DNA of 64,000 nucleotides from NCBI GenBank assembly GCA_964423405.1, contig CAYREY010000003.1, positions 81,326 to 145,325 of the forward strand, read 5' to 3'. Each line of letters begins with the position of its first letter. Within the stretch, counting starts at the first letter, position 1. This DNA is from an uncultured Chitinophaga sp. (GTDB lineage Bacteria; Bacteroidota; Bacteroidia; Chitinophagales; LD1). This document shows, one piece after another, positions 17,353-53,900 of the stretch. The position numbers and the translations under genes were made by a program. The notes under the pieces are model-generated. The model saw only the letters and a program-made list of their open reading frames with translations, was not told where the DNA came from and made no database searches.

Positions 17353-17360
17353 TTTGTTTA

Positions 17361-29956: not shown

Positions 29957-29967
29957 CAGGCACAAAC

Positions 29968-30001
29968 AAAAGCCGGCAACTGTAGTACAGTTGCCGGCTT
30001 T
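29968..30001. terminator. Bidirectional terminator between convergent genes
   Basis: AAAGCCGGCAACTG-tagta-CAGTTGCCGGCTTT is a perfect 14-15-bp stem. Confidence 0.85.
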
Positions 30002-30020
30002 CTGTTTATACAAGTGTAGT

Positions 30021-36327: not shown

Positions 36328-36870
36328 TTACTTGCTTAAAGCAGCTTCAATGGCTTTAATAACTTCAGCATCATTAACCGAAGTTTTAGGGCTAACCGAA
36401 GTTATTACGTGGCCATCTTTACCCACCAGAAATTTTTGAAAATTCCAGGTAACAGCGGCGTCAGTAACACCATTTTCGCTTTTCTGGGTAAGGTAGCTGT
36501 ATAGCGGGGCTATATCTTTACCCTTTACCGATATTTTAGAAAACATAGGGAACGTAACTGCATACTCGCGGGTGCAAAAAGCCTTTATATCTTTATCGCT
36601 GCCCGGCTCCTGGCCCATAAAGTTATTGGCCGGAAAACCCAGCACTACCAGGCCTTTGCTGCTGTATTTGGTGTATAGGGCCTGTATATCCTTATACTGC
36701 GGTGTATTACCACACATACTGGCTACGTTTACTATCAGCAATACTTTGCCTTTGTATTTAGCTAACGATACCTGGTTACCATCAATATCCTTTACATTAA
36801 AATCGTAAACAGTTTTGCTGCTGTTAGCTGCAAATAAGGCCACCAGGGCTATGGTCAAAAAAGTTTTCAT
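36328..36870 (-). CDS. Glutathione peroxidase (Cys-type), with signal peptide
   Basis: GPx signatures are present: LIVNVASMCGNTPQY, LGFPANNFMGQEPG and WNFQKFLVGKDG. Confidence 0.9.
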   Translation of the reverse strand: MKTFLTIALVALFAANSSKTVYDFNVKDIDGNQVSLAKYKGKVLLIVNVASMCGNTPQYKDIQALYTKYSSKGLVVLGFPANNFMGQEPGSDKDIKAFCTREYAVTFPMFSKISVKGKDIAPLYSYLTQKSENGVTDAAVTWNFQKFLVGKDGHVITSVSPKTSVNDAEVIKAIEAALSK

Positions 36871-36925: not shown

Positions 36926-36952
36926 AAAAGGCCGGTATATAACCGGCCTTTT
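36926..36952 (-). terminator. Rho-independent terminator after the 1420-aa cargo gene
   Basis: AAAAGGCCGGT-atata-ACCGGCCTTTT is a perfect stem with an A-run and a T-run. It starts 9 nt after the stop at 36961. Confidence 0.85.
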
Positions 36953-36960
36953 AAACATTT

Positions 36961-39900
36961 TTATCGGATAAGAGTTACAGAGCCTTTGTATTTAAGCGAC
37001 CGGTCATTCATCATTACCACATCGGCGGTAAATACATATACGCCTGCCGGCAGCGGTGCGCCTTTGTAAGTACCATCACAACCGTAGAAAAAATTGGTAG
37101 ATTCAAACACTTTCTCGCCCCAGCGGTTATACATACCCCATTTAATCTGTTTTACACCGCTACCGAATGGTAAAAACACATCGTTGTTACCATCGCCGTT
37201 AGGGCTAAAGGCATTCGGCCAGAAAATATCGCCCACCTTCAATACGTTCAGCACAATAGCATCGGTACCGGTACAGCCATAGTTATCGGTATACACCAGC
37301 ATATAGGTAATTGTATCGGCCGAATAGGCTACCGGGTTCTGGCAGTCGTTACAACTCAGCAGGGTATCGGGCATCCAGTTGTAAGTACCACCGCTTCCAT
37401 TGCCTTGATTGATAACAGCAAATATGCCGGTGTTTTGCCCCTCATATACCAGCTTATCATCGCCCAAATCAACCATAGGCATCGGTACCAGGTTAATATC
37501 TACGGCATCGGTGGCAGTACAGTTATTGGCATCGGTTACGGTTACCGCATAGGTACCTGCCAAAGTTGGCAATATGGTTTGCGTGGTTTCCCCACCGCTC
37601 CACAGGTAACCGGTAAATCCGGCAGGCGCCGATAAATTAATAGGCGTACCCTCGCAGGCTGTAGTATCGTTACCCAAATCTATGGTTAACAAGGGTGGCT
37701 CGGTAATAAATGCGGTAGCACTACCGGTACAGTTACTGGCATCTGCCACAGTAACTGTATAGGTACCCGGTATTAATCCGGTTTGTGTACTATCGTTGGT
37801 GCCACCACTCCATTGGTATAAATAGGGCGTACTGCCTCCGACTACATTAGCCGTTACTACACCATCGGCTGCGCCAAAGCAGCTTACATCGGTAGTTACT
37901 ATATTAATCTGTAAACTATTGGCAGATGTAGGTACTGTTACCAATACGGTATCTGCACAATCATTCAGGTCTTTCGCAATAACAGTGTAGTTGCCCGGTG
38001 CCAGGTTACCAAACGTATTTTGCGCCTGGTATGCACCACCGTTAAACGAATACGTGTAAGGCTGCACACCGGCCGTAGTAATGTTAACAGTTACCGAAGC
38101 ATTGCTTAATCCGCAGCTGGGTGGTGTTACCACCGCATCGGCCTGTATGGTACAGCAAATAGGTGTAGCCAGTGTAACACTCGCTACAGCCTGGCAACCC
38201 ACCGCATCGGTTACGGTTACTGTTACAGCACCGGGTGGCAGACCTGTAAACGATTGGTTAATTGGCGCAGGTATAAAAGGTACCTGTACCGGTGTACCAC
38301 CGGTAGTATCAATCTCTGCACTGTAAGGTGCAGTACCACCGCTCAGGTTTACAGTTATCTGCCCATCATCGCCGGCACAGGTTGGGGCTACAGGGTTGGT
38401 AAGCGTTAGCACCAGGGTACTGTTATCATTCAATGGAAACAAGGTATCTATAGCACAATTGGCAAAAGCAATATCAGTAATAGTAACTGTGTAGCTACCC
38501 GATGATATGCCGGTAAGGGAAGAAGTGTTTTGTCCGCCACCCCACGCATAGCTGTAGTTACCCGAACCATTGGAAGCGGTAAGTGTAATACTGCCATCTG
38601 CCTGCCCGCAGGTTGGCTGTACTAACACAGCACTTACGGTGTGCGTACAACAGTTGGTAGGGGCTGTAAGGGTTACACTGGCGTTAGATGGACAGCTATT
38701 GGCATCTTGTACGCTGGCAGTAATAGTACCGGCATCAAGCCCCGGTAGCGGCAACTGCCCGGCTATGGGCGATGTTACCGTAAACGGGCCCGAACCTGTA
38801 TCAATGGTTATGGTGTATGGGCCGGTTCCACCGGCAAGCGTAACTGTAACCGAACCATCGCCACCGGCGCAGGTAGGGTTAACCGGGTTACTGAACGTAA
38901 GCGTAGGGCCACCCGGCGATGCTAAAGTAACCGAAGTAGTAAATGTACAGGTAGCTATGCTGGTACTGGTTATAGTTACAATGTACGTTCCTGCACCTAA
39001 ACCGGTACGGTTTTGCTGGGTAGATGGGCCATCGCTCCACGCGTAGGTATAGCTACCTGCCGGCGTAGGGCTTACGTTTATAGCACCATTGGTTTGCCCG
39101 CACGATGGCTGCGTGGTGCTGGTAGTAGCACTTAGCTGGCAACAGTTAGTGGGGGCTACTAAAGTAACCGTAGCACTGGCCAGGCAACCCTGCCCATCGG
39201 TTACGCTTACGTTAATAGTACCCGCACCAAGGCTAGGTATAGTAAGCGAGCCTGCCACCGGCGAAGTTTGGTTAACAGGTGCACCACCGGTATCAATAGT
39301 AATCTGGTATAATGGTGTACCACCCGATAAGGTTACCTGTACCGAACCATCGTTACCCGCACAGGTTGGTTGTGTAGGTACGCCAAAGGTAACCGCCAGG
39401 TTGCTGTTACTGTTTAATACAATGGTAGTATCGAAGGTACAGGTGGGTGTGCTGGTACTGGTAACGGTTACAGTATAGGTACCTGCTGGTAAACCTGTAC
39501 GGTTTTGCTGGGTAGATGGGCCATCGCTCCAGGCAAACGTGTATGAGCCCGCAGGCACCGGTGTAATGTTAATAGCCCCGTTACTTTGCCCGCAGGTAGG
39601 TTGTGTGGTTGCAGCGCTGGCACTAAGTGCGCAGCAGGCTTGTGTGTTTACATTTATCACATCGCTTTGTGTTACACAACCAGCCGTATCGCTAACCGTT
39701 AAGGTAAAAGTACCCGGCGGTGGGCACACCGTAGGGGTAAGTGTGTTACTGTTGGTCATATTACCGGTAGGGCTCCAGGTAAAGTTACCGGTATAGGCTA
39801 CCTCGGGGTCGTTAAAGGTAATTGTCCAACTGTTGAACGAACCGGTAGGTAACGAAAAGCCATTGAAAATAGCATTAAAGTGTAACGACCACACACCATT

Positions 39901-41223
39901 GGCATCGCAACCCACCAGGTTATTAAACGGCTGGTTAGGTGCATAACTACCAGAGTATGGAGAAGTGCCCGATGTGATAGGCGGGCCGGCCGGTACAAAG
40001 CAGGTATTGGTAAGCGATGTGCCCGATATAGTGCTATCTTTTACAAGTAAAATAGAGTCGCCGCTGGGGCATACCAACCAGATATCAAACAAATCTACCC
40101 CACCAAAAAAGCTCATCGTCATATTACCAATACATACACTTGATATATAGTTAGAGGGCACTGTATTTAAATTCAGGTTGGTCACATTTATATCCATGGC
40201 TAAAAATGCGCGGCCCGGTGTAGCAGGTATTATTGGCGGAAAGCCGGGCAAACCCGGGGTACCGGTAATAGGGGCTGTTTCCTGATTACGGTAGGTAGGT
40301 GTTTTAGCAGGGCGCTGTACAATTTTAGCCGTAGCATTTAACTGTAGGCACTGGCCACTGCAAATGGTGGTATCATTACCCGCATTTACTACTATAGTAG
40401 GGTTTACCACTACCAGCCGTACGGTATCGCTACAGGTATTGGTACCGTTGCTCATGTTTACTACGTAGTTTATAGTAGTATTAGGCGATACTGGTGTAGG
40501 ATTAACTCCACCGTTCGGGCCGGCATTATATCCATCATGTACCCATACTATGTTGTACGAAGGGTCGTTACAGTATATCACCACATTGTCTATACCCCAG
40601 TGGTCATAGTCGGCACCCGAGTCAGCATCCTGAAACCATCTAAACTTCGTATTTGAAGTTAATGCAGCCACCGGTACAGGAAAACACCAGTTATTCCAGT
40701 TAATTAACTGTGGATCGGAACCGCCGTTTGGATCAAAGTAATTCAGGGTAGTCCACGTAGCACCGTTATCAATGCTATATTGTAAATAAACCCCTTCTAA
40801 CGGTTCATCAGGCCCCTCACATGGTGCTGTGCAATTGCTGCACTGTGTAGCAAACAACATATCAAAACAAATGGTAACACCTGCATTGGCGCAACTACTC
40901 AAGTTAAATGATGTAGTTGTAAGTGCTCGTGGTACTGGCGACGAATTGCCCATCCAAACATGCGTAGTACCATCTACACCATTGGAGCTACATGGGTTAT
41001 TCCACATAGCCTGTTGTGTACTCTGCCAGCCAGGGCCGTAACTACCGCTGTTAAAATTCTCTGACAGCAGCGCTATACCCTGCGCCTGGCCGAAGGCTGA
41101 TAACGATGCATTTTCGCCGCATACTATCGTATCGCGGTTAATAGCTGCGCTTACCGTACAGCCCTGCGAAAATGCATAGACTGATATAATACAGAATACA
41201 ATAGTGCTTACAAGATTTTTCAT
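36961..41223 (-). CDS. 1420-aa T9SS type B cargo: Asp-box jelly-roll + P-domain-like module, four 164-aa SprB-type super-repeats, type B CTD
   Basis: The C-terminus WPNAFSPNGDGNNDVFLPF...MYNRWGEKVFES...GTYKGAPLPAGVYVFTADV...GSVTLIR is a type B CTD. The N-module (aa 20-530) is shared with the 41348..44269 gene. The signal peptide is MKNLVSTIVFCIISVYAFSQ. Confidence 0.92.
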   Translation of the reverse strand: MKNLVSTIVFCIISVYAFSQGCTVSAAINRDTIVCGENASLSAFGQAQGIALLSENFNSGSYGPGWQSTQQAMWNNPCSSNGVDGTTHVWMGNSSPVPRALTTTSFNLSSCANAGVTICFDMLFATQCSNCTAPCEGPDEPLEGVYLQYSIDNGATWTTLNYFDPNGGSDPQLINWNNWCFPVPVAALTSNTKFRWFQDADSGADYDHWGIDNVVIYCNDPSYNIVWVHDGYNAGPNGGVNPTPVSPNTTINYVVNMSNGTNTCSDTVRLVVVNPTIVVNAGNDTTICSGQCLQLNATAKIVQRPAKTPTYRNQETAPITGTPGLPGFPPIIPATPGRAFLAMDINVTNLNLNTVPSNYISSVCIGNMTMSFFGGVDLFDIWLVCPSGDSILLVKDSTISGTSLTNTCFVPAGPPITSGTSPYSGSYAPNQPFNNLVGCDANGVWSLHFNAIFNGFSLPTGSFNSWTITFNDPEVAYTGNFTWSPTGNMTNSNTLTPTVCPPPGTFTLTVSDTAGCVTQSDVINVNTQACCALSASAATTQPTCGQSNGAINITPVPAGSYTFAWSDGPSTQQNRTGLPAGTYTVTVTSTSTPTCTFDTTIVLNSNSNLAVTFGVPTQPTCAGNDGSVQVTLSGGTPLYQITIDTGGAPVNQTSPVAGSLTIPSLGAGTINVSVTDGQGCLASATVTLVAPTNCCQLSATTSTTQPSCGQTNGAINVSPTPAGSYTYAWSDGPSTQQNRTGLGAGTYIVTITSTSIATCTFTTSVTLASPGGPTLTFSNPVNPTCAGGDGSVTVTLAGGTGPYTITIDTGSGPFTVTSPIAGQLPLPGLDAGTITASVQDANSCPSNASVTLTAPTNCCTHTVSAVLVQPTCGQADGSITLTASNGSGNYSYAWGGGQNTSSLTGISSGSYTVTITDIAFANCAIDTLFPLNDNSTLVLTLTNPVAPTCAGDDGQITVNLSGGTAPYSAEIDTTGGTPVQVPFIPAPINQSFTGLPPGAVTVTVTDAVGCQAVASVTLATPICCTIQADAVVTPPSCGLSNASVTVNITTAGVQPYTYSFNGGAYQAQNTFGNLAPGNYTVIAKDLNDCADTVLVTVPTSANSLQINIVTTDVSCFGAADGVVTANVVGGSTPYLYQWSGGTNDSTQTGLIPGTYTVTVADASNCTGSATAFITEPPLLTIDLGNDTTACEGTPINLSAPAGFTGYLWSGGETTQTILPTLAGTYAVTVTDANNCTATDAVDINLVPMPMVDLGDDKLVYEGQNTGIFAVINQGNGSGGTYNWMPDTLLSCNDCQNPVAYSADTITYMLVYTDNYGCTGTDAIVLNVLKVGDIFWPNAFSPNGDGNNDVFLPFGSGVKQIKWGMYNRWGEKVFESTNFFYGCDGTYKGAPLPAGVYVFTADVVMMNDRSLKYKGSVTLIR
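37705..39636 (-). repeat. Four in-frame ~492-bp (164-aa) super-repeats delimited by Cys-Cys dipeptides (coordinates approximate at the 3' side)
   Basis: The units begin CCALSASAATTQPTCGQSNGAINI, CCQLSATTSTTQPSCGQTNGAINV, CCTHTVSAVLVQPTCGQADGSITL and CCTIQADAVVTPPSCGLSNASVTV. Units 1 and 2 are both exactly 164 aa and share YAWSDGPSTQQNRTGL.AGTY. Confidence 0.8.
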
Positions 41224-41282
41224 CTATGTGCTTATGTTTTTATTTCAATACTTAAGTTGCCTTTATCTGTGGGTTGATACAA

Positions 41283-41290
41283 CAAAAATA
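41283..41290 (-). promoter_or_regulatory. Candidate -7 promoter box for the 1420-aa cargo gene
   Basis: Minus-strand TATTTTTG matches TAnnTTTG. It lies 60 nt upstream of the ATG at 41223 and just downstream of the terminator at 41311..41340. Confidence 0.35.
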
Positions 41291-41310
41291 TCTGCCGCCC
41301 TATACAAAAA

Positions 41311-41340
41311 ACAGTGCCCGAAAATTTATCCGGGCACTGT
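41311..41340 (-). terminator. Rho-independent terminator after the 973-aa cargo gene
   Basis: ACAGTGCCCG-n10-CGGGCACTGT is a perfect 10-bp stem. On the minus strand it is followed by TTTTTTG. It starts 8 nt after the stop at 41348. Confidence 0.85.
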
Positions 41341-41347
41341 TCTTTTA

Positions 41348-44269
41348 CTACATCTTCATCAATTTTTGTGTAATAGCCCTGTTACCGGCGCTTATACGTA
41401 ACATATAAACACCTGTAGCTACGTTCAGTTCAATCTCCGAACGTTGGTTATACAATCTGGTCTGGTAAACAAGTCTGCCTTCGGCATTATATACTTCACA
41501 CTGTGCTCCTATCCAGCCTTTGCTTACTGCTATATTCCACATAGCAGTGGCATTAGGGTTAGGGTACACACTCATTCTGTCTTCTTCCATATCATCAATA
41601 CCGGTTACGGTTACTACTACCGGCAACGATAGAGCGGTACAACCATTCTGATCGGTTACCAGCACCGTATAGCTACCCGACTCGTTGGCAACATACAATC
41701 CGCCGGTAGCACCCGGTATTGCTTGTCCATCGCGGTACCATTGGTAGCCCGCCGAACCATAGGCCAGCAACGAATCTTCGTTTACACTTATGCTTACAGG
41801 AGGTTGCGGGTATGTATTTAACGGCAACTGGTTAGATGCCGCCGAACAGTTGGTATTGTCGGTTACGGTTACATAATAATTACCGGCAAGTGTAGCCGAA
41901 ATACATGCCGATGTTTCACCAGTGTTCCAGGCGTATGATGCATAACCGGCAGGGGCACATATAGTAGCCGTATCGCCGGCACACATCAGTTGTTTGTTGC
42001 TGGTTATAGATACGGTATTATTAAGCGAACTGCCCACTATAACACTGGCTGTTGCAGTACAGCCACTGGCATCCGATACTGTAACAGTGTAGGTACCGTT
42101 AGCAAGACCTGTTAGCTGGGCTGAGTTTCCGCCATTGCTCCAGTTGTAAGTAGAGGCGGTACCCTGCGTTACGGTTACCGTTGCTGTACCATTGCTGTTG
42201 CCGCAGGTAGTATTGGTAGCCAATGCCGAAACAGCAATACTGCCGCCGGCATTTACTACTGCCGATGCGGTAACGGTGCAGCCACCCGGCGCTGTTACAG
42301 TAACGGTATAAGTACCGGCAGCCAGGTTGGTAGCAGAGGCAGTAGTAGCGCCGTTATTCCACTGGTAACCACTGGCAGTACCCGATAAAATACTAACAGT
42401 TGCCGAACCGGTATTAGTAGCACAACCGGTACCGGTAGTAGCTACCGATATGGTAGGGGCACCGGCAGCACCCACTACTATAGTCTCTACACTCGAACAG
42501 CCATTGGCATCGGTAATAGTAACAGTATACGTACCTGCCCCTAAACCGGTACGGTCAGGTGTAGTTGCAGGGCCATCGCTCCAGGCGTATGTGTAGTTGG
42601 CTGTGGGCGACATGGTAATATCTATAGCGCCATCGTTCTGCCCGCAGGTAGCCTGCGATGGTACAGCCGCAGCATTAAAATTACAACAGGTATAGGTGCT
42701 CACTCTTACGGTATCGGTACGGGTAACACAACCGGCTGTATCCGATACTGTAAGTACAAATTCATTAGGTACAGGACATACAGTAGGGGTAAGTGTGTTG
42801 CTGTTGGTCATGTTAGCAGTAGGGCTCCAGGTAAAGTTACCGGTGTACGATACCTCGGGGTCATTAAACGTTATGCTCCAGTTGTTAAACACACCTATAG
42901 GTAACGATACACTGTTTATCACAGCGTTCAGGTGTAGCGACCATACTCCATTCGCATCACATCCGGCAAGGTTACTAAAAGGCTGGTTAGGGGCAAAGTT
43001 GCCGCTATAAGGCGATATAGCCGAAGTAATAGTACTACCCGCAGGTACAAAGCAGGTATTGGTTAACGATGCTCCGGTAAGGGTACTGTCTTTCACAAGC
43101 AATATCGAGTCGCCACTGGGGCATACCAGCCATATATCAAAAATCTCTATCCCACCAAAAAAACCGCTCATAGTAACATTACCAATACATACGCTGGTTA
43201 TATAGTTAGGTGTTACCGTATTCAGGTTCAGGTTGGTTACGTTAATATCCATAGCTAAAAACGCACCGCCCGGTATAGGGGGTATAAGCGGCGGTATGCC
43301 CGGAAAACCAGGTGTACCACTTATCTGTGCAATCTCCTGATTAGAGTAAGTTGGTGTTTTAGCCGGACGCTGAACTACTTTACCATCGGCATTAAGCGCC
43401 ACACAGGTACCCGAGCAGATGGCAGTATCAAGGCCCGCATTTGCCACTACTATAGGGTTTACTACGTTAATAGTTACTGTATCGGCACAGGTATTAGTAC
43501 CATTGCTCATAGTTACCACATAGGTAGTGGTAGAATTAGGAGAATAAGGTGTAGGGTTGGCACCACCAGCACCACCTGTGGTGTAACCACCCGGCCACGC
43601 TATGCTGTAAGTAGGGTCATTACAGTAAATTACAACGTTATCTATACCCCAGTGGTCATAATCTGCACCAGAGTCGGCATCCTGATACCAACGAAATTTA
43701 GTGTTAGCTGTAAGTGCTGCCTGTGGCACCGGAAAACACCAGTTACGCCAGTTAACAAGCTGTGGGTCGTTACCACCATTCGGGTCAAAATAGTTCAGGG
43801 TAGTCCAGGTAGCACCGTTATCGGTAGAATATTGCAGGTACACCCCTTCTTGTGGTTCATCGGGGCCCTCGCAGGGGGCATTGTTACCCTGTGTGGCAAA
43901 CAACATATCAAAACAGATTGTTACACCGGCGTTGGCACAGCTACTAAGGTTAAACGAAGTAGTAGTTAATACCCGTGGCACCGGCGATGAGTTACCCATC
44001 CAGATGTGGGTAGTTCCATCTACACCACCGGGGCTACAGGGGTTATTCCACATAGCCTGCTGGGTACTTTGCCAGCCCGGTCCGTAGGTACCGTTATTAA
44101 AATTTTCTGAAAGAAAAGCATTGCCCTGGGCATTACCGAAAGCCGACAATATTACGCTTTCGCCACATACAATTGTATCGCGCGATAAAGAGGCATTAAC
44201 CGTGCACCCCTGTGCAAATGCATATTGCAAGCCGCATAGCGCAGCTACAAAAAGTAATAGTTTTTTCAT
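41348..44269 (-). CDS. 973-aa T9SS type A cargo: the same Asp-box jelly-roll + P-domain-like N-module, SprB-type repeats, type A CTD
   Basis: The C-terminus MSVYPNPNATAMWNIAVS...VYNAEGRLVYQ...ATGVYMLRISAGNRAITQKLMKM is a type A CTD. The start is set at MKKLLLFVAALCGLQYAFAQ (ATG 44269). The track ORF starts at 44296. Confidence 0.92.
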   Translation of the reverse strand: MKKLLLFVAALCGLQYAFAQGCTVNASLSRDTIVCGESVILSAFGNAQGNAFLSENFNNGTYGPGWQSTQQAMWNNPCSPGGVDGTTHIWMGNSSPVPRVLTTTSFNLSSCANAGVTICFDMLFATQGNNAPCEGPDEPQEGVYLQYSTDNGATWTTLNYFDPNGGNDPQLVNWRNWCFPVPQAALTANTKFRWYQDADSGADYDHWGIDNVVIYCNDPTYSIAWPGGYTTGGAGGANPTPYSPNSTTTYVVTMSNGTNTCADTVTINVVNPIVVANAGLDTAICSGTCVALNADGKVVQRPAKTPTYSNQEIAQISGTPGFPGIPPLIPPIPGGAFLAMDINVTNLNLNTVTPNYITSVCIGNVTMSGFFGGIEIFDIWLVCPSGDSILLVKDSTLTGASLTNTCFVPAGSTITSAISPYSGNFAPNQPFSNLAGCDANGVWSLHLNAVINSVSLPIGVFNNWSITFNDPEVSYTGNFTWSPTANMTNSNTLTPTVCPVPNEFVLTVSDTAGCVTRTDTVRVSTYTCCNFNAAAVPSQATCGQNDGAIDITMSPTANYTYAWSDGPATTPDRTGLGAGTYTVTITDANGCSSVETIVVGAAGAPTISVATTGTGCATNTGSATVSILSGTASGYQWNNGATTASATNLAAGTYTVTVTAPGGCTVTASAVVNAGGSIAVSALATNTTCGNSNGTATVTVTQGTASTYNWSNGGNSAQLTGLANGTYTVTVSDASGCTATASVIVGSSLNNTVSITSNKQLMCAGDTATICAPAGYASYAWNTGETSACISATLAGNYYVTVTDNTNCSAASNQLPLNTYPQPPVSISVNEDSLLAYGSAGYQWYRDGQAIPGATGGLYVANESGSYTVLVTDQNGCTALSLPVVVTVTGIDDMEEDRMSVYPNPNATAMWNIAVSKGWIGAQCEVYNAEGRLVYQTRLYNQRSEIELNVATGVYMLRISAGNRAITQKLMKM

Positions 44270-44276
44270 GGTGCAG

Positions 44277-44690
44277 CTATTGTATAGGTTTAACAAGTAC
44301 GTTCGTCAACTCAAACTTTGTAAGCTCGGTTGAAGTAAGGTTCAATTGTTTGGCAAATATGTACAGTCGGTTATCGCGGGTTGTACATTCGCCCTCTATA
44401 GCAGCACCAGGCTCCAGTGTAACCGAAAAATCTCGTACATCTGGCTTGGCTGTTGTGTTGTTAGAAAAAGTAAGCTCTTTGGTATAAAACACCTCTACCT
44501 TACGATTCTGTAGGTTTACTACTTTCAGTAAAATCTTTTTTTGGTGTATACCGTTTGCGTTATCGTGGCATTCTGCCTCGCGGTACAAAATTTCTACTTC
44601 GCTGTTTTTAAAGTAGCTTTTCCAGTTTTCGCCGGCAAAAGCAGCTACACTCAAAAACAACATCATCAGGGGTAATAGTGCGCGTTTCAA
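44277..44690 (-). CDS. Small secreted protein, function unknown, probably co-transcribed with the downstream cargo gene
   Basis: The 137-aa ORF has the signal peptide MKRALLPLMMLFLSVAAFAG and two conserved-looking Cys (ECHDN, GEC). It starts at a TTG. Its stop is 7 nt before the ATG at 44269. Confidence 0.6.
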   Translation of the reverse strand: MKRALLPLMMLFLSVAAFAGENWKSYFKNSEVEILYREAECHDNANGIHQKKILLKVVNLQNRKVEVFYTKELTFSNNTTAKPDVRDFSVTLEPGAAIEGECTTRDNRLYIFAKQLNLTSTELTKFELTNVLVKPIQ

Positions 44691-44737
44691 TGTACTTGGT
44701 TTTGTTTTTATAAATAAATAGTTGTTAGCCGTTATTA

Positions 44738-47700
44738 TTATAATCTTATAAGTTTTTGACTTACAGATTTATTGCCTTTGGTTACTTTAAGCATATACAC
44801 ACCGGGTGCAATATTTAGTTCTACAATAGAATGCTCGTTCTTAATTTCCTCTTTATAAACCATTCGCCCTATAGCATCATATACCTCGCAATTGGCCCCT
44901 ATCCAGCTTTGGCTAACCGCAATAGTCCATTGGCTACCAGCATTGGGGTTTGGAAAAACACTCATACTTTCCTTAGCCATGTCGTTTATACCTGTAATTG
45001 TTACAACCACAGGCAGCGATTGTGCAGTGCAACCAGCTGCATTGCTAACCACCACGGTATAACTACCACTTACAGATGGTACATAGATAGCATCGGTTGC
45101 ACCCGAAATCAGCACCCCATCGCGGTACCACTGATAACTCGAAGAGTTATAGGCTACTAACGTATCTCCATTCACGCTTATACTAACAGATGGCTGCTGG
45201 TAGGCTGTAATAGCAGTAGCTGGCGATGTAGCCGTGCAATTGTCTAAATCAGTAACAGTTACATAATAGTTGCCGGCCAGTTTCACTTTAATGCAATCGG
45301 TAGTAGAACCGTTGTTCCACAAATAAGATTGATAACCCGAAGGTGCACATAAAATTGCGCTGTCGCCGGGACATATAGCTGTCTTATCTGTTGTTATAGC
45401 AACATTGCCTGTACCCGAACCGCCTACTATAACACTGGCTGTAGCTGTACAGCCACCTGCATCACTTACCGTAACGGTATAGGTGCCCGCTGCCAGACTG
45501 TTTAGGTTAGGCAATGTGGCTCCATTGCTCCAAAGATAGCTACTGGCTGTGCCCTGGGTTACATTTACAGCAGCTGTCCCGTTTACGTTGCCACAACTGG
45601 TATTGGTAGATGATGCCGATATGGATAATGTGCTTGAACTATTTACGGTAACACTGGCTGTTACAGTACAGCCGCCGGTACCGGTTACTGTAACAGTGTA
45701 ATTGCCGGCTGCCAGGTTGCTTGCAGTAGCGCTGGTAGCACCACTACTCCAGTTGTATCCGGTGGCTGTGCCCGATGTAACTGTTACGGTTGCAGAGCCT
45801 GTATTACCATTACACCCGGCAGCTGTTGCCGATGTTGTAATAGCAGGTGCACCGGTATTACCCACCACAGCACTGGCGGTTGCCGAACAACCGCCTGTAC
45901 CTGTTACCGTTACGGTGTATGTTCCACCGGTAAGGTTACTGGCAGTAGCACCGGTAGCACCGTTACTCCAGTTATATGCAGTAGCTGTACCCGAGCTAAT
46001 AGTTACTGTAGCGCTACCGTTGGCGTTAGAGCAGGTAGCATTAGTTGCAGTGGCCGATACAACCACCCCCCCCGATGAACCAACTACGGTGCTTGCCGTA
46101 GCCGTACAGTTAGCAGTAGAGGTTACTGTAACGGTATATGTACCAGCAGCTAACGAATTAGCTGTTTGCGTACTGGCACCATTGCTCCAGCTATATGCCG
46201 ATGCAGTGCCACCTGTAATGTTAGCCGTGGCAGTACCTGTGCTGGTACAACCGGCAGCAGTAGATGTTGCCGAAGCGGTAATGCCTGTTGATGAAGCTAC
46301 GTTTGCTGTAGCTGTAGCCGTACAGCCCGATGCCGACACGGTTACAGTATAGGTACCGGCTGCAACACTGGTTAATGTAGCGCTGGTAGCTCCGTTGCTC
46401 CACGCATAGCCGGTAGGTGTAGCACCGGTAGTAGTTACGGTTACCCCACCATTATTATTGCCACAGGTAGTGGCAGCAGGTGTGGCAGATGCTGTAAGTG
46501 CACAAGCCGATGCACAGTTTTGTAGTGATGCCGCGCTTGTAATAATTAACTCACCTCCATTGCTATCCAATACACGCACAGGATATGAAGCAGGAGTAGT
46601 ATTGGTTCCGGTTGCAAAATTTTGCCAGGTAGTAGTGGTGGTTTCACAGCCGGGAGGGATGCACAATGCTGGAAAAATACAACCCGAACAATTTTGTTGC
46701 TGTACCTGTTGCTGCCAGGTGTATGGCCCGGTTCCACCACTTACAGTAACACTGTTGTTATTTTCTTTACAGGCTGTAAGAGTAGCACATGCATTAACCC
46801 TTATGGTAATCGTATCGGTATAGCCGCAGGGCAAAGTATAACTTATTATATGCGAGCCTATACCTGCAACAGCTGGTGTAAACAACCCTGTAGAAGAATT
46901 AACCCCTGGGCCGCTCCAGGTACCGTTAAGGGTAGGATTACAATCAGTGCCGGTTCCTGTAGTAACAGATAGTGTAGCGGGTGCATCGCTAATACAAAAT
47001 GGCGCACGGGCGGTAATTTCGGCAAAGCAACAGCCATTGGGCACAATACTTACATCATCTATAAAATAGTATGCGAAAGGGTTAGGAAAAACCGGCTGAC
47101 CCGTGTTTACTATATTGGTACCTGCATTATTAAAAAAGTTACCGATTGTAAAATATGTTTCGCCCCCTGCTGCAGTATAGTTCCATTGCAATCTCACCCA
47201 GGCAGCGCTGGTATCTGTAATAGCATTGCATGAATAATTTAATTGCGGGGTTACATAAATTCCAGAATTTGTTTGCCCCGGACATGGATCGCGCAAATAA
47301 CGGGTATTTGAAAAATAAATACCCATATTGTTTGTTGCATAAGGCATTAAATCTCCCAGGCTTACATACATAGATACACAATAGCTTTGCCCTGCTACCA
47401 GTGGCGATGAAACACGGCCTTGTATATACTCCCGGTATTCATCAAGTGCTTCGTAAGTAATAATACCTGCATGCCTTGTTCCGGTATGCGAATATTGGAA
47501 ACCAAGTGCCGCACTTGGCATGTTGGTTGGGCCAGGGCCACCTATTATAGGTAGTGTATTACATGCTGAAAAAAGATCGGGGCTGGAACAGCTATCGCCA
47601 CCTACGTTGTTGCTGGCATTATCCCAGCTACCTGCCAAATCTGTAAAAAAACCTTCACCACCTAAATTTGCACAGTTACTACTGGTTATCTCAAAACTTG

Positions 47701-47794
47701 GGTTTACTACCAGGTTTTGGGCTTTAACGGGGGTTGTATTAATAGATAATACATAAAGGAGCAATGCAAGGGCAATGCGTAAACAGTTTTTCAT
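44738..47794 (-). CDS. 1018-aa T9SS type A cargo: N-terminal jelly-roll (NLVVNPSFE type), six SprB-type repeats, type A CTD
   Basis: The C-terminus MSVFPNPNAGSQWTIAVS...VYDAIGRMVYK...APGVYMLKVTKGNKSVSQKLIRL is a type A CTD. The start is set at MKNCLRIALALLLYVLSINTTPVKAQ (ATG 47794). The N-domain QNLVVNPSFE...YFIDDVSIVP is a recurrent Bacteroidota secreted-protein domain. Confidence 0.9.
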   Translation of the reverse strand: MKNCLRIALALLLYVLSINTTPVKAQNLVVNPSFEITSSNCANLGGEGFFTDLAGSWDNASNNVGGDSCSSPDLFSACNTLPIIGGPGPTNMPSAALGFQYSHTGTRHAGIITYEALDEYREYIQGRVSSPLVAGQSYCVSMYVSLGDLMPYATNNMGIYFSNTRYLRDPCPGQTNSGIYVTPQLNYSCNAITDTSAAWVRLQWNYTAAGGETYFTIGNFFNNAGTNIVNTGQPVFPNPFAYYFIDDVSIVPNGCCFAEITARAPFCISDAPATLSVTTGTGTDCNPTLNGTWSGPGVNSSTGLFTPAVAGIGSHIISYTLPCGYTDTITIRVNACATLTACKENNNSVTVSGGTGPYTWQQQVQQQNCSGCIFPALCIPPGCETTTTTWQNFATGTNTTPASYPVRVLDSNGGELIITSAASLQNCASACALTASATPAATTCGNNNGGVTVTTTGATPTGYAWSNGATSATLTSVAAGTYTVTVSASGCTATATANVASSTGITASATSTAAGCTSTGTATANITGGTASAYSWSNGASTQTANSLAAGTYTVTVTSTANCTATASTVVGSSGGVVVSATATNATCSNANGSATVTISSGTATAYNWSNGATGATASNLTGGTYTVTVTGTGGCSATASAVVGNTGAPAITTSATAAGCNGNTGSATVTVTSGTATGYNWSSGATSATASNLAAGNYTVTVTGTGGCTVTASVTVNSSSTLSISASSTNTSCGNVNGTAAVNVTQGTASSYLWSNGATLPNLNSLAAGTYTVTVSDAGGCTATASVIVGGSGTGNVAITTDKTAICPGDSAILCAPSGYQSYLWNNGSTTDCIKVKLAGNYYVTVTDLDNCTATSPATAITAYQQPSVSISVNGDTLVAYNSSSYQWYRDGVLISGATDAIYVPSVSGSYTVVVSNAAGCTAQSLPVVVTITGINDMAKESMSVFPNPNAGSQWTIAVSQSWIGANCEVYDAIGRMVYKEEIKNEHSIVELNIAPGVYMLKVTKGNKSVSQKLIRL
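45413..46504 (-). repeat. Six in-frame ~61-72-aa Thr/Ala/Gly-rich SprB-type repeats
   Basis: The repeated pattern is (T/S)C(G/S)N.NG.A.V....GTA..Y.WSNGA.......L.AGTYTVTV....GC(T/S)ATAS..VG. The complementary strand is open as a shadow ORF (45702..46352). Confidence 0.85.
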
Positions 47795-47990: not shown

Positions 47991-50900
47991 TTACCTCGTC
48001 AGTACAATTTTCTGGGTGTATACCTCGTTAGCCGATGATACTACAGCCGTGTAGGTACCCGATGCCAGTCTTGCCAGGTCGAAGGCAATGGTGTTGGCAC
48101 CTTTGTTTACCACATGGTTGCTTTCCAGTACTTTCTGGCCTACTATGTTGTAGAATGCTATACTTATTTCCTGCTCTTTGGTACCGGTCACTATCAGACT
48201 GGTACGGTCGGTAGTTGGGTTAGGTATAAACTCTTTTACACTAAAGGTAGCCTCACCTACTATACGGGCACTTACTATATCGGTGTACTCAAACGCATTG
48301 TCGTAGTCAACCTGTTTCAGTCGGTAGTAGTAAACCACACCGGCAGCTACGGTCATATCATCGTAGTTATAGTTATGCTGTGTAGTAGCATTGTTGTGGC
48401 CTTCTACAAAACCTATCTGTGTCCAGTTCTGGCCATCGGTGCTGCGCTCTACTTCAAAGCCGCGGTTGTTCACCTCTATGGCAGTTGCCCAGCTCAGGCG
48501 TATGTAAGCGTTGTTCATTACATCGGCCTGCAGGTATATCATCTCTACCGGCAGCGGCTGGCTTTGTTGCGAACCGTGCAGCCAGAATTCTGAAAACTCG
48601 GTTACCGTCATTTGTACATAGTGGTGTGTTTGTGCACCGCCATATATACCCTGGAAACCCGTGTTGCTGCCTGTGTATTCGCCTTTTATAAGCGGACGGT
48701 TTGGCGTGGTATTGTCACCAAACACGCGGTACAGGCCGCTTGGCGTGTTGTTCAGGTAGTTGCCGTCTTCGTTGTTACCGGTGTATTTGGTTACATACAG
48801 CTGGTTAAAGTTGTATACATCATCCAGCTCGGTACAAGCGTAATCAGGGTTAGGGTAGCCGGTGTTGTTGTTCCAGGCATCGGCTTTCAGTGTGTTGTAA
48901 TCATCATCGCTAAAGAACAACATCACATCTACACCCGTTGTAGGCGCTAAGGTAGATGTCATTTTAAAGTGACGACGCATAGCGGTATGCTCGGTCCAGG
49001 TACAGTTGGTTGCCAGCGGGTTGTTATATATTACCGGTGGTGTGGCGTCTTTGTACACATCAACGGTTACCAATCCAAGGTTGCTGTGGTTGTCGTTAAT
49101 AGCCATTATGGCGTTGTTAGTTACTGCATCGCGGAAAGTAACCCATTTGTTATAGTCGTTAATCCAGCAATCTACAGTTATGTTACCGGTAGCCGAGGTC
49201 ATTACTATATCGTTCGGGCGGCCGGTAGGCGCTGTTACCGCACTGCTGGTAGTGCTGCAACCGGCAGCGTCAGTTACAGTATAGGTACCCGATGCACCGG
49301 CGTTCAGTTCGTGTATACCCTGGTTGGTAGTAGAGGTATAGAATGAACCCGGATAGGTATAAGGTGGTGTACCACCCGAACCGGTTACCAGTACATAGTA
49401 TTTATCGCCCACGGCAAAGTTCATACACTCATCTACCACTACGTTGGCTACTACCGGTGTGCCGGCCGTTACAACTGCTGTAGCAGCAGTGGTTACAGGG
49501 CCGCAACCAGAGCCGGCCTGGCCTATCTCGCAATAATAGTAGGTGGTGCCTGCTACTACCGGTGGGGTATAGCTGGCGTTGTTGGCGCCGCCGATTAATG
49601 TACCACCCGAAGTAGAGTTGGTAGTGTTTGAATACCACTGGTAGCTGTATGCACCGGTACCGCCATTAGCCGTTACACTTATTGGTGATGCCGTACCACC
49701 CGAGCATAAACCGGTTTGTGTAGCCGGTGTAGGGTTGCTTACGGTTGGGTCTGGTAGTATGGTAACGTTGGCAAACAAACTGTAAGCGTCATCGCAACCT
49801 GGGCCGGTTGAGTACACCTTAGCCCAAAGCGGCACTGTAATAGCCGGTGCGTTTGCTGCGGTAGTAATACTAAGGTCGGTAGTAGTTTCACCAGAGTATG
49901 TTACACCAGTAGGGTTACTGTTTGTTACAATGGTACCGTTATCGTACTCCCACTCATATAGCAGGTTTGGTGCACCGCCACTGGCAGCAACAGTTAAGGT
50001 AGCATTACCGCCAGAGCATAGGTAAACATCTACCGGCTCCAGCGTTATTGCCGGGTCAGCTTTTACATCTACCGATACGTTAGATGACGTATTGGTACAG
50101 TTAGTACTCATAGTTACTGTTGCTCTGTACAGGTAATTACCTATACCCAGCGCTGTGCTGGTGTTATATGTAGATGAAGTAGTGCTTTGTACAGTACTCC
50201 AGCTACCGCCGCCGTTGGCGCTGCGTTCCCACAGTATGTTGGTTATTGCGCCGGTACCACCGGTAACAATAGCTGTAAGTGTAGCGCTACCACCTGAACA
50301 TACATCCTGGTTTCCTGATATAGAAATATTAGGAACTGATGCAGCGGTAACTACTACCTGATCGCTGGCCGTACAACCATTGCCAGCTGTTACAACTACT
50401 GTATAGGTACCGCCTTGTGTAATGGTAGGCGATGCTGTGCCACTACCGGTTACACCGGCAGTAGGGCTCCAGTTGTAAGATGCGGTACCGGTTATATTGA
50501 TATTGTCAACCATAGGGCCGCCTACATAGGCACCATTAAGGTCCCCATCGTTCACCCAGCGGAAACCCAGCAGGAAACGTTTGCCTACTACAGCAGCAGG
50601 CATAGTAATATTTGCCGTACCGCTGGTAGGTGCATTGGCAAAGAAAGCGTTGGTACTACCCATGCCACGGTACAGGTTAAATGTGCCGGCGTTATTACCT
50701 TCACTTATAGGCACCCAGGTTGTACCGTTATCCAGCGAGTACATTACCTGTAGGTAATCGTATACATCGCTGCCAGAGTACGTACCACCCACCTGATAGT
50801 TAAAGCTTAGATTAACTGAAGTGTATAAACGCGCATCTACCGGTGTAGTGTTGTAGGCTATCTCGTCCAAAGTACCGGCATCCCAGGCATAATCTCCCGG

Positions 50901-53900
50901 CACCACAGGTTCGTAAATACGACGATCAAACATGGTTAAGCCCGAACCCGATGTAATGTTGTTTACCGGGTTAGCCATATTGGCTACAGGTGTTGCACCG
51001 TTATAGGTAATCCACCATTCGCTGCGGTTGGCAGGCTCAAGGCCATACAGATATTTAATTCTCCAGTTGCTGGTAGTAGAAGTAACTTCAGAACTTACGC
51101 CCGTGCCAAAGTTCTCAGTAAATATAGTAGTGCTGTTTGAAGTAGCATTCAATACCACACTCGAAGAACAGTTAAGTGTCACATCCGATCCGGCATTGGC
51201 TACAGGTACTGGTTTAATTTCTACCGCACCGTTCATAGGTACATTACAAGCGCCGCTATTAACCGATACTGTATAGGTACCGGCTGCACCTGTATTACCA
51301 ATGGTAAGTGCGCCACCCGAACTCACAACCGGCGAACCAAAGGCCGAACCATCACGCATCAGCTGGTAAGTAAGGCCGTTGGTTGAGTTATCCAGCCCTA
51401 CAACTACCGGAGTTAATGCATCATAACATAATTCGGTGTTGGCAGGTGTTACATTGTAAATGTTTACGTTACTGGTAATTACGAAATCGGCTTGCGAGCG
51501 GCAGCTTGGGCTGCTTGAGCAGGCTGCCCAGAAAGTATAGGTACCCTGGGTGTTTGTATTTGCTAAGCCAGAACCAGGTACACCAACCGGATTAAAGGTT
51601 TCGCCATATCCTATCGGCGAACCACCAGATGAACTGGTGTACCATTCTACAGTACCCGGTTGGTTAATCAATACATTACCACCCACCGGAGGTGTTACTG
51701 TCCATGTAAAATCATTATTTACTACATCTGAACCACCGTCGGTAGTAGAGATAAGGGTATAAGTAATTCCGGCTGTAAGGGTAAGCGGGTTACCAATACT
51801 ACCCAGTATAGGCTCACCGCCCGAACCGCTGGCATTATCAGCTCTAAGCAGCGTACCGGTTGCACAGCTACCAGGTGTAAAGCCGCCTGTTACTATATAA
51901 CCTGCGCCATTGTAACTGGTATTGGTATTCATTTCAAATATATAATCGCCGGTTACAGATACCTGGAAAGGTATGGCCGAGTAAGTACGTACAGCTCCGG
52001 TAAATCCACAAGTACTGGTATTAGCAGCACCCGATGGTGTAGCTGCAGTAGGGTCGCCTGCAAGCCAGCCTCCATAAATCTGGTTAGGGCCGGGTATGGT
52101 AGGTATCACAAAATTCTGTATACATACGCTACCGGCATCTACCGATAGGCTACCACTACCACCCTGACAGATAGATACCGGATTAACAGCTAGTGGTGTA
52201 GGTACTGCGTTTACAGTAAGTGTGCCCAACATTGGTGTAACACAATCTGGCACTGCTGTTAATCTTACTTTAACCGAGTGGCTACCTGTAGCAACACCGG
52301 TAAATATCGGGCTGCTCTGGAAAGCACCAGCATCAAGCTGATACTCGTAGTTAAGGCCAACAGGGCTGCTTACCTGTATAGTACCCGATGGTACTGCACA
52401 AGTAGGTTGCGCTGTTACTGTAGCAGTAGGTGCAGGTGGCGGAGAAGGTACCGGGCCCACTGTAGCAGTATTGTTATTAGTACAACCACCTACGTTTGCT
52501 TTCACATTAACTGTATGTGTGGTCGACGATAATCCGCTAAATGAAGTAGAAGCTCCATAAGTACCACCATCAATATTATAGGTGTATGCACCAAGTGGCG
52601 CAGTAACGGTTATAGTACCCGATGGTGTAGTACAGGTTGGGTCTGTTACAGTTAATGTAGGTACCGCAGGTACCGGGTTTAATGTAATATCAACATCATC
52701 GGCAGATGCAACACAAGGTGCGTTGGCAATTGTCCAACGCAAGGTGTATGTACTGCCTACAGTACCACTAAACGATGAGGTAGGACTGGTTGGCGAAGGT
52801 ATAGAACCACCCACACCAGCAATAATGCTCCACGAACCTGTACCAACTGCTGGTGTGTTTCCGGCAAGTGTGGTAGTGTTTCCACAAACCACCTGGTCGG
52901 CACCAGCCGCTGCTGTAGTAGGTGTAGCCACCAAAGTAACTATCACATCATCCGAAGATGGAGTACATGGTGCGTTGGCAATAGTCCAGCGCAGAGTATA
53001 CGCTACACCAGCTGTACCTGTAAAGGTAGATGTTGGGCTGGATGGGGTAGTTACAGTACCACCAGCACCCGATATAATTGACCAGGTACCAGTTCCTATA
53101 GATGGTGTATTAGCAGCCAATGTTGCTGAGCTACCGCACACGCTTTGGTCTGGACCAGCGTTAGAAGTAGTTACGCTCGCAGCAAAACTAATTACCACGT
53201 CATCGGTAGATGCTGTACAAGGTGCATTTGATATAGTCCAACGTAAAGTATAGGTATTCCCCGCTACACCGCTAAATGCCGATGTTGGGCTTGAGGCTGT
53301 TGTTATTGTTCCACCGGCTCCCGAAACAATAGACCATGAGCCAGTACCAATTGCAGGTGTATTACCGGCCAGCGTAGTGCTGGTAGCACATAATGTTTGG
53401 TCGGGGCCTGCATTAGCAGTTGTAGGGCTAGGTGTTAAGGTTATTACCACATCATCGGTAGAAGCGGCACACGATGGGTTAGATATTGTCCAACGCAGAG
53501 TATATGTGTTACCGGCTATACCAATAAATGCTGATGTAGGGCTGGATGGTGTAGAAACAGCACCGCCGCTACCCGATATAACGCTCCAGGCGCCTGTACC
53601 AATAGTTGGTGTATTGGCCGCAAGTGTTGCGTTAACACCACATACTGTTTGATCGGCACCTGCAGCAGCAGTAGTCGGGTTCTGTTTAAACACAACTACC
53701 ACATCATCGCTCGATGATGCACATGGTGCATTGGCAATGGTCCAACGAAGGGTATAGGTATTGCCTGCAACACCACTAAAGGTTGATGTTGGGCTAGATG
53801 GAGTAGTAATAGTACCACCTGTGCCACTTATTATAGTCCAGGTACCTGTACCAACCGATGGGGTATTACCGGCCATAGTAGTACTGCTGCCGCAAATATC

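What the first reader, a model, noticed from the sequence alone, without database searches (positions are those of the whole stretch)
36961..47794. The middle gene of a three-gene T9SS cargo run is a chimera of its two neighbours, and one N-module is joined to either a type A or a type B sorting domain
The N-terminal ~510 aa of the 973-aa protein (41348..44269) are collinear with the N-terminus of the downstream 1420-aa protein. An alignment by eye of the first ~105 mature residues shows about 15 substitutions and no gaps. One example is GCTV.A...RDTIVCGE..LSAFG.AQG.A.LSENFN.G.YGPGWQSTQQAMWNNPCS. Nucleotide coordinates are roughly 42677..44212 versus 39634..41166.

Its last ~220 aa, plus the preceding SprB-type repeats, are collinear with the C-terminus of the upstream 1018-aa protein (41348..42016 versus 44738..45412). 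This stretch includes the motif YQWYRDG and the type A CTD.

The same cargo module is therefore fused to a type A CTD in one gene and a type B CTD in the next. The two CTD classes are thought to use different T9SS outer-membrane partners and to have different fates (attachment or release versus PorP/SprF-dependent surface display). This looks like recent cassette shuffling that re-routes one passenger.
Basis: partly seen in the sequence, partly recalled or inferred. Interest (0 to 1): 0.68.

Follow-up and report, generated by a model that had tools for sequence, protein, structure and literature searches.

The report
Old chimeric T9SS surface-protein gene
The middle gene really is a fusion of its two neighbours, so one binding module carries two different secretion/anchoring tags, but the fusion is ancient, conserved in related species, and an ordinary kind of domain shuffling for these proteins.

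Summary
B (41348..44269, -) shares residues 1-587 with A (36961..41223, -) at 77-80% aa identity. Residues 588-973 match C (44738..47794, -) residues 633-1018 at about 60%. The junction lies inside a shared GTYTVTVT repeat motif (window ~42506..42538). HMMs give A a type B CTD and give B and C type A CTDs.

Relatives explain the origin. B-less genomes carry C - small gene - A. One relative carries C - small - B - small - A. Another keeps a decayed relic of the second small gene between B and A. One tandem duplication with end points inside C and A would give this, with B as the junction gene.

"Recent" is wrong. Synonymous sites are saturated. B is collinear in two other species-level genomes (74% and 67% aa). 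Near-identical strains carry the same B and A (99% and 98% aa). The recently variable gene is C.

Both passenger families occur widely with either CTD class, so class switching is common. Different routing of A and B is plausible from published engineered CTD swaps but is untested here.

Verdict: a well-resolved example of a known kind, of moderate interest.

The parts
44738..47794 (-). Gene C, 1018 aa. It has an N-terminal passenger module, SprB-like repeats, a tail with the YQWYRDG motif and a type A CTD. It is the parent of B's 3' part.
   Evidence: ORF. TIGR04183 scores 53.9 bits at aa 946-1016. C-like genes lie upstream of the small gene in L006-L010, L014, L085 and L089.
46799..47794 (-). 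Strain-variable N-terminal part of C (aa 1-332). It has no homology to the C' gene (1368 aa, DUF7948 N-terminus) of otherwise ~96% identical strains.
   Evidence: Homology of L085, L086 and L089 to the window stops at 46798. The upstream DNA of L085 matches nothing in the window. The module belongs to a very large cargo family with 1864 hits.
44738..45898 (-). C residues 633-1018, the segment collinear with B 588-973.
   Evidence: Smith-Waterman alignment, ~60% aa identity, z = 89. Junction alignment.
44277..44690 (-). Conserved small gene, 137 aa, encoding a secreted beta-sandwich with an SPase-I-type signal peptide and no CTD. Its stop lies 7 nt before B's ATG. It is part of the duplicated unit.
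   Evidence: A homologue lies directly upstream of the N-module gene wherever the upstream DNA is present in the locus (not L017). 18 database homologues. AF2 pLDDT 84.6. No Pfam match.
41348..44269 (-). Gene B, 973 aa, the chimeric junction gene.
42509..44269 (-). A-derived part of B (aa 1-587). It holds the signal peptide, the N-module (reelin-subrepeat-B/MAM-like jelly-roll, Ig, furin-P-domain-like beta-sandwich, Ig) and the first SprB-like repeat.
   Evidence: 77% aa identity to A 1-587. PF21471 scores 70.5 bits. PDB reelin matches at E = 2e-18. AF2 pLDDT 89.4 and Foldseek hits to reelin, MAM and furin P-domain.
42506..42538 (-). Recombination junction (B aa ~578-588), inside the motif AGTYTVT(V/I)T that the repeats of both A and C share.
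   Evidence: B orthologues follow the A set up to this motif, including a residue the C set lacks, and follow the C set straight after it. Windowed identity to the two sets crosses at 581-600. Codon coordinates.
41348..42508 (-). C-derived part of B (aa 588-973): SprB-like repeats, the YQWYRDG tail and the type A CTD (aa 901-972, window 41354..41569).
41306..41345 (-). Intrinsic-terminator-like hairpin followed by a T-run, immediately after B's stop. It suggests A is transcribed separately from B.
   Evidence: Sequence read. Fold energy -26.9 kcal/mol, z = -7.45, and 0 of 200 shuffles fold as well.
36961..41223 (-). Gene A, 1420 aa: N-module, 8 SprB repeats and a type B CTD (aa 1335-1420, window 36964..37221). 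It has the ancestral architecture and is the parent of B's 5' part.
   Evidence: TIGR04131 scores 37.5 bits and PF13585 48.9 bits; PF13573 gives 8 stretches and 159.5 bits. A-like orthologues occur in L006-L016, L001 and L004.
36926..36952 (.). Terminator-like hairpin between A and the glutathione peroxidase gene (36328..36870). It marks the end of the cargo run. No PorP/SprF gene follows A.

Best explanation
B is a junction gene made by one tandem duplication in an ancestor of this Chitinophagales lineage.

The ancestral order was C (passenger + SprB-like repeats + tail + type A CTD), then the small gene, then A (N-module + SprB repeats + type B CTD). Unequal crossing-over between the GTYTVTVT motif of a repeat in A and the same motif in a repeat of C duplicated the segment [3' part of C - small - 5' part of A]. 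The join point fused A's signal peptide, N-module and first repeat to C's last repeats, tail and type A CTD. That gave C - small - B - small - A. The second small gene was later lost in the window's lineage.

Both copies have since been kept under purifying selection, and A appears to have its own transcription unit.

Functional inference: the non-catalytic binding module is exported by the T9SS in two forms.
- B, with a type A CTD, would be handled by PorV and then attached to the surface or released.
- A, with a type B CTD and no linked PorP/SprF gene, would be handled by an unlinked PorP/SprF-type shuttle.

What is shown: the mosaic, the junction, the CTD classes, the comparative series and the age. 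What is inferred: the crossing-over mechanism and the differential routing.
For: 1. B-less relatives L008, L009 and L014 carry C-like(type A) - small - A-like(type B). Seven further loci carry small followed by an A-like gene.
2. L007 carries exactly the predicted C - small - B - small - A-like order.
3. The 246-bp B-A spacer of L006 keeps a relic of the small protein's C-terminus ending in a stop. It scores z = 6-11 against six queries, and 0 of 300 shuffles reach it.
4. Tail tree over 383 columns: the C tails of B-less genomes are the outgroup (100%). B tails are monophyletic (72%). The independent-origin groupings get 1% and 14%.
5. B of the window, L006 and L007 are collinear with no indel between residues 502 and 888, so they share junction and repeat register.
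6. The junction maps inside a motif shared by both parents.
7. Paralogue and orthologue divergences match in both modules. N-module: 0.77 for A/B vs 0.74 for winB/L007B. Tail: 0.58 for B/C vs 0.61 for winB/L007B. This fits one event for both halves.
8. Age: 4-fold site identity is 0.37-0.45 in every comparison. N-module aa identity stays at 77-80% despite that saturation, which indicates purifying selection.
9. CTD classes.
10. Terminator between B and A.
11. Routing inference: engineered A<->B CTD swaps re-target cargo, and orphan type B substrates use an unlinked shuttle (PMC12618676).
Against: - The N-module tree does not separate A and B orthologue groups. winA is sister to the B clade of the window, L006 and L010 (94%). 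L007's two N-modules pair weakly (52%). L006's A-like N-module is an outlier.
- The small-gene tree is also not cleanly orthologous: L007 small-1 pairs with L012's small at 96%. This needs old gene conversion between tandem copies or rate differences, neither of which is shown.
- B-tail monophyly has only 72% support, and all trees are NJ on Kimura distances.
- The window's own B-A spacer has no relic of a second small gene.
- No PorP/SprF partner for A is identified, and nothing here measures secretion or localisation.
- TIGR04131 on A is only just above its cut-off (37.5 vs 35).
Confidence: 0.72

Rival explanations
1. Two-step origin. The unit small-A was first duplicated in tandem. Ectopic recombination or gene conversion with C then replaced the 3' part of the upstream copy.
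For: It gives the same end state (L007). Discordance in the N-module and small-gene trees hints that conversion between tandem copies has occurred at this locus.
Against: It needs two events where one suffices. Paralogue/orthologue divergence ratios are the same for the N-module and the tail, as expected if both halves of B date from one event. No small-A-small-A intermediate was seen among about 20 loci.
Confidence: 0.13
2. Recurrent, independent formation of B-type chimeras in the window/L006 lineage and in the L007 lineage, driven by the shared repeats.
For: In the N-module tree each genome's A and B tend to pair with each other. P0006 shows that a second, independent N-module::C-type-tail fusion exists elsewhere, because its tail groups with the outgroup C tails (95% split).
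Against: L007B+L007C group in 1% of bootstraps and the window-clade B+C in 14%, against 72% for B monophyly. The three B genes have identical repeat number and register.
Confidence: 0.08
3. One reading: recent cassette shuffling within this genome.
For: The locus does show recent change, but in gene C. C is 76% aa identical between strains whose B, A and flanks are 97-100% identical, and homology is lost beyond 46798.
Against: Synonymous sites between A/B and B/C are saturated. B is conserved with the same junction in other species. No alternative B or A combinations were found in four near-identical strains.
Confidence: 0.03
4. B has the ancestral architecture, and A and C are derived from it.
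For: None specific. B-like architectures exist in a distant lineage (P0006).
Against: All B-less relatives already have both A-like and C-like genes in the same order. In the wider family type B tails predominate, 68 against 13-14. C tails of B-less genomes root the tail tree outside B plus the ingroup C tails.
Confidence: 0.03

Closest known systems
Engineered CTD-swap chimeras in Flavobacterium johnsoniae (SprB, RemA and AmyB with exchanged type A and type B CTDs; Paillat et al. 2025, PMC12618676)
   Same: One passenger is joined to either a type A or a type B CTD. In the experiments the CTD alone decided the fate. Type A gave static anchoring or release via PorV. The SprB type B CTD gave loading onto the gliding track.
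   Different: Here the swap is natural and ancient, and both versions are kept side by side. The exchanged piece is about 386 aa (repeats + tail + CTD), not just the CTD. No localisation data exist.
Orphan type B CTD substrates of F. johnsoniae (Fjoh_1123, Fjoh_1720, Fjoh_4934) served by the unlinked shuttle Fjoh_1677 (PMC12618676)
   Same: Gene A has a type B CTD but no adjacent PorP/SprF or PorE-like gene, either in the window or in any relative.
   Different: No candidate shuttle for A was identified. The only PorP/SprF gene in the window (16106..17185) sits in a separate type B/PorP/PorE-like operon. That operon's CTD is 47% identical to A's over 68 aa.
SprB-family gliding/adhesion proteins (SprB repeat PF13573 + type B CTD)
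   Same: A has 8 SprB repeats and a type B CTD, and the passenger is non-catalytic and all-beta.
   Different: At 1420 aa, A is far shorter than SprB. It carries a reelin-subrepeat-B/P-domain N-module that is not described for SprB. A role in gliding is untested.
Chimeric genes formed at the join point of tandem duplications (a general bacterial genetics mechanism; cited from my own knowledge)
   Same: A duplication with end points inside two genes leaves both parents intact and creates a 5'-A::3'-C fusion between them, together with a second copy of whatever lay between. L007 and the L006 relic show this.
   Different: Such duplications are usually unstable and lost. This one has been fixed and maintained across species.

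Membership tests
T9SS type A sorting domain (TIGR04183 / PF18962) | C-terminal ~70-80 aa domain scoring above the curated HMM cut-off | tested here: met
   TIGR04183 (cut-off 23): B 64.3 bits at aa 901-972, C 53.9 bits. PF18962 (cut-off 27): B 44.6, C 45.1.
T9SS type B sorting domain (TIGR04131 / PF13585 CHU_C) | C-terminal ~85 aa domain scoring above the curated HMM cut-off | tested here: met
   A scores 37.5 bits on TIGR04131 (cut-off 35, so marginal) and 48.9 bits on PF13585 (cut-off 27) at aa 1335-1420. PNAFSPNGDGNNDVF and YNRWGEKVF stretches are visible.
T9SS type B substrate/shuttle pair | A cognate PorP/SprF-family gene next to the substrate gene. This is typical but not obligatory. | tested here: not met
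   The gene downstream of A is glutathione peroxidase. phmmer with the window's PorP/SprF found none in any related locus. A is therefore an 'orphan' type B substrate.
T9SS cargo (functional) | Sec signal peptide plus T9SS-dependent export and CTD processing | not testable with these tools
   N-terminal hydrophobic signal-like sequences are visible in A, B and C. Export itself needs experiments.
SprB repeat proteins (PF13573) | Repeats scoring above the Pfam gathering threshold (28 bits) | tested here: met
   Met for A: 159.5 bits, 8 stretches. Not met for B (26.0 bits) or C (19.8 bits), whose repeats are SprB-like only.
Reelin subrepeat B-like domain (PF21471) | Pfam HMM above its cut-off, plus fold similarity | tested here: met
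   A 63.9 bits and B 70.5 bits (cut-off 27). PDB reelin chains match at E = 2e-18. Foldseek finds reelin repeats at E = 2e-8.
Junction chimera of a tandem duplication | Both parents intact on either side, fusion 5'-downstream parent::3'-upstream parent, and the intervening gene duplicated | tested here: met
   Parents C and A flank B. The intervening small gene is duplicated in L007 and is a relic in L006. The second copy is absent in the window itself.

The most novel reading that the evidence does not exclude
The A/B pair is a long-maintained natural split of one adhesin-like binding module between two T9SS display routes. B would be statically anchored or released through PorV and a type A CTD. 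A would be held by a PorP/SprF-type shuttle, possibly mobile on the gliding track. Selection for such dual routing would have produced it more than once, since P0006 is an independent N-module::type A-tail fusion. The conserved small periplasmic beta-sandwich gene upstream would be a dedicated helper of this passenger family.
Probability: 0.25. Interest if true: 0.6.

Novelty: new member of a known kind. Interest (0 to 1): 0.4.

Why it matters
Engineered CTD swaps have shown that the T9SS C-terminal domain decides where a cargo ends up. This locus is a natural counterpart: one binding module kept for a long time in two versions with different CTD classes, with its origin reconstructable from related genomes.

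It offers a clean paralogue pair for testing whether CTD class alone changes localisation of a native passenger. It also shows that repeat-mediated unequal crossing-over between neighbouring cargo genes is one way new passenger/CTD combinations arise.

It does not reveal a new mechanism. Both passenger families examined here occur widely with either CTD class, so class switching looks routine in Bacteroidota.

Tried and rejected
- An iterated HMM built from the C-termini merged type A and type B CTDs into one profile and was discarded. Fixed seed sets labelled by Pfam separated them cleanly.
- A first MAFFT --auto run timed out.
- I looked for evidence of recent gene conversion between the A and B N-modules. 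Four-fold sites are saturated in every 100-aa bin (0.36-0.51), so there is no recent tract.
- I searched the window's 124-bp B-A spacer for a relic of a second small gene and found none (z about 0).
- I looked for the sister strains' upstream DNA (TonB receptor, C' N-terminus) elsewhere in the window and found none by blastn or tblastx.
- The promoter scan gave fewer hits than shuffles (19 vs 22.5) and was not used.
- The small protein has no Pfam family and only weak fold matches: SadB and DUF1425, E at least 2e-3, TM about 0.4. I assign it no function.
- A literature search for natural CTD-class switching or domain shuffling in T9SS cargo found no paper holding 'domain shuffling' together with the T9SS terms.
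- The source genome is not among the GTDB species representatives (best match 74-76% aa). Near-identical contigs exist only in metagenome assemblies.
Full report
**1. What is there**

The region holds four genes on the minus strand, not three:
- C: 44738..47794, 1018 aa.
- A small gene: 44277..44690, 137 aa.
- B: 41348..44269, 973 aa.
- A: 36961..41223, 1420 aa.

Upstream lies D (47991..58559, 3522 aa, type A CTD). Downstream lies a glutathione peroxidase gene (36328..36870).

Curated HMMs assign the CTDs as follows:
- A: type B. TIGR04131 scores 37.5 bits (cut-off 35) and PF13585 scores 48.9 bits (cut-off 27).
- B: type A. TIGR04183 scores 64.3 bits (cut-off 23).
- C: type A. TIGR04183 scores 53.9 bits.

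A also has eight SprB repeats. The repeats of B and C are SprB-like but fall below the Pfam threshold.

**2.

There are 16 mismatches and no gaps in the first 105 mature residues of A and B. The two stated nucleotide blocks are 74% and 67% identical.

Alignment scores are far above shuffled controls: z = 214 for B1-587 vs A and z = 89 for B588-973 vs C. The control of B's N-part against C's N-part gives z = 0.9.

Sliding identity shows two collinear blocks:
- A/B is 75-93% identical up to about residue 520 and 30-40% identical after about 620.
- B/C is at most 30% identical before about 560 and 55-70% identical from about 600 to the end.

**3. The junction**

I aligned the B orthologues against seven A-type and seven C-type genes. 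B follows the A set through ...AWSDGPxxxxxxTGLxAGTYTVT, including a residue that all C-type genes lack. It follows the C set directly after the motif GTYTVT(V/I)T, which occurs in the repeats of both parents.

The junction is therefore at B residues ~578-588, window ~42506..42538. The A-derived part is about 587 aa: signal peptide, N-module and first repeat. The C-derived part is about 386 aa.

**4. Origin**

A scan of species-representative genomes and of contigs encoding close homologues gave a series of arrangements:
- L008, L009, L014: C-like (type A) - small - A-like (type B), with no B. Seven further loci also show small followed by an A-like gene.
- L006 and the near-identical strains L085-L087: C - small - B - A, as in the window. 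L006 and L085 also show gpx after A.
- L007: C - small - B - small - A-like.
- L089: C' - small - gpx, lacking both B and A. Its flanks are 87-97% aa identical to the window's.

A single tandem duplication of [3' part of C - small - 5' part of A] predicts exactly the L007 state. Both parents stay intact, and a 5'-A::3'-C fusion and a second small gene lie between them.

Three further tests agree:
- The 246-bp B-A spacer of L006 still encodes a relic of the small protein's C-terminus (…QVNLTSTRDEKFELKYITEKNIQ*). It scores z = 6-11 against six queries, and 0 of 300 shuffles reach it. The window's 124-bp spacer has none.
- In a tail tree of 383 columns the C tails of B-less genomes are the outgroup (100%). 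B tails are monophyletic (72%). The groupings expected for independent origins get 1% and 14%.
- B of the window, L006 and L007 are collinear with no indel between residues 502 and 888.

Paralogue and orthologue divergences are also about equal in both halves. For the N-module, A/B is 0.77 and winB/L007B is 0.74. For the tail, B/C is 0.58 and winB/L007B is 0.61. This fits one event shortly before these lineages split.

**5. What does not fit neatly**

The N-module tree does not resolve A and B into orthologue groups:
- winA is sister to the B clade of the window, L006 and L010 (94%).
- L007's two copies pair weakly (52%).
- L006's A-like module is an outlier.

The small-gene tree is similarly untidy. 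Old gene conversion between tandem copies, or rate variation, could explain this, but neither is shown. All trees are neighbour-joining.

**6. Age**

Four-fold degenerate sites are saturated in every comparison. Identity is 0.42-0.43 for A/B, 0.37 for B/C and 0.31-0.40 between orthologues. The N-module nevertheless stays 77-80% identical at the protein level, so both copies are under purifying selection.

Four metagenomic contigs about 96% nt identical to the window carry the same small gene (100% aa). Where compared (L085), B is 99.2% and A 97.7% aa identical. 'Recent' is therefore wrong for B.

The recently variable gene is C. In those same strains identity drops to 63-88% nt from C's stop codon upward and disappears beyond 46798. 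Their C' is 1368 aa with a DUF7948 N-terminus and a TonB-dependent receptor upstream. The window instead has a different 332-aa N-terminus and gene D.

**7. How common is CTD-class switching**

Among the 120 best homologues of the N-module, 68 end in a type B CTD and 13-14 in a type A CTD. The rest are mostly truncated. Type A tails appear at about four separate places in an unsupported NJ tree.

P0006 has a B-like architecture at 56% N-module identity. Its tail groups with the outgroup C tails (95% split), so it looks like an independent fusion.

The N-terminal module of C belongs to another large family (1864 hits). Among its best 120 members, 60 carry type A and 21 carry type B. One passenger family paired with both CTD classes is thus routine.

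**8. What the parts are**

The N-module model has mean pLDDT 89.4 and is all-beta. It has four domains:
- a reelin-subrepeat-B/MAM-like jelly-roll (PDB reelin at E = 2e-18 by sequence, 2e-8 by fold);
- an Ig-like domain;
- a furin-P-domain-like sandwich;
- a second Ig-like domain.

I recognised no catalytic domain, so it is most likely a binding or adhesin module.

The small protein has a signal peptide, no CTD and a beta-sandwich fold (pLDDT 84.6). Its structural matches are only weak.

**9. How it most likely works**

B's ATG lies 7 nt after the small gene's stop, so the two are probably co-transcribed. A strong hairpin with a T-run follows B's stop (-26.9 kcal/mol, z = -7.45), so A probably has its own transcript.

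Paillat et al. 2025 (PMC12618676) showed three relevant things in F. johnsoniae:
- Type A CTDs go through PorV to static anchoring or release.
- Type B CTDs need PorP/SprF-type shuttles.
- Orphan type B substrates use an unlinked shuttle, and swapping CTD class re-targets a passenger.

By analogy, B and A would display the same binding module by two routes. A is an orphan: no PorP/SprF gene is adjacent in the window or in any relative. This routing step is inference only.

**10. Verdict**

This is a well-documented example of a known kind of event, modular shuffling of T9SS cargo through a duplication join point. It has value as a natural paralogue pair for testing CTD-dependent routing.

Noticed in passing
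window 44277..44690 (-): A conserved 137-aa gene for a secreted beta-sandwich protein with no Pfam family. It lies directly upstream of the N-module gene wherever the upstream DNA is present in the locus (not L017). It persists in L089 even though B and A are absent there. The weak fold matches are to SadB and DUF1425-type lipoproteins.
   Followed up: partly
window 44738..47794 and upstream; break at 46798: Gene C is the strain-variable gene. Strains about 96% nt identical across small-B-A-flank are only 63-88% identical across C. Beyond 46798 they have a different N-terminal module (DUF7948 type) and a different upstream gene (a TonB receptor instead of D).
   Followed up: partly
L089 vs window 36971..44282: A close relative (flanking proteins 87-97% identical) has C' - small - gpx and lacks B and A completely. 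Because L006 has C - small - B - A - gpx, this is probably a secondary 7.3-kb deletion.
   Followed up: partly
window 28337..30018 (gene 28391..29956, +): A 521-aa type A CTD cargo gene between the Crp-like regulator and the FTR1 permease genes is absent from L089. This is another presence/absence difference in T9SS cargo.
   Followed up: no
window 13958..22373 (-): A canonical type B operon: a 1670-aa CHU_C protein (17361..22373), PorP/SprF (16106..17185) and a PorE-like TPR/PD40/OmpA protein (13958..16048). This is the arrangement linked to static anchoring in F. johnsoniae. Its CTD is 47% identical to A's over 68 aa.
   Followed up: partly
N-module residues ~321-420 (window B ~43010..43309); L006 vs L010: This is a hypervariable stretch at the start of the P-domain-like region. 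L006B and L010B are 98-99% aa identical elsewhere but 67% here, with 4-fold identity 0.35 against 0.69-0.86 elsewhere. That suggests a replaced recombination tract. L006's A-like copy is also very divergent here (0.42-0.49).
   Followed up: no
window 47991..58559 (-): Gene D encodes a 3522-aa type A CTD protein with a long run of near-identical ~75-aa PKD-like repeats. It also has a weak reelin-subrepeat-B-like stretch (aa 2577-2637). The Pfam APOBEC2 hit looks like a repeat artefact.
   Followed up: no
L001/L002 (10001..13528) and L004 (10001..14214), L012 (513..4546): In several relatives the A-like gene is split into two ORFs (808+293, 570+844 and 480+853 aa). These are frameshifts, pseudogenes or assembly errors.
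   Followed up: no
window 1..5171 (-): A long ORF (at least 1723 aa) runs off the start of the window. It has weak similarity to the pre-CTD region of A and is probably another large surface protein.
   Followed up: no
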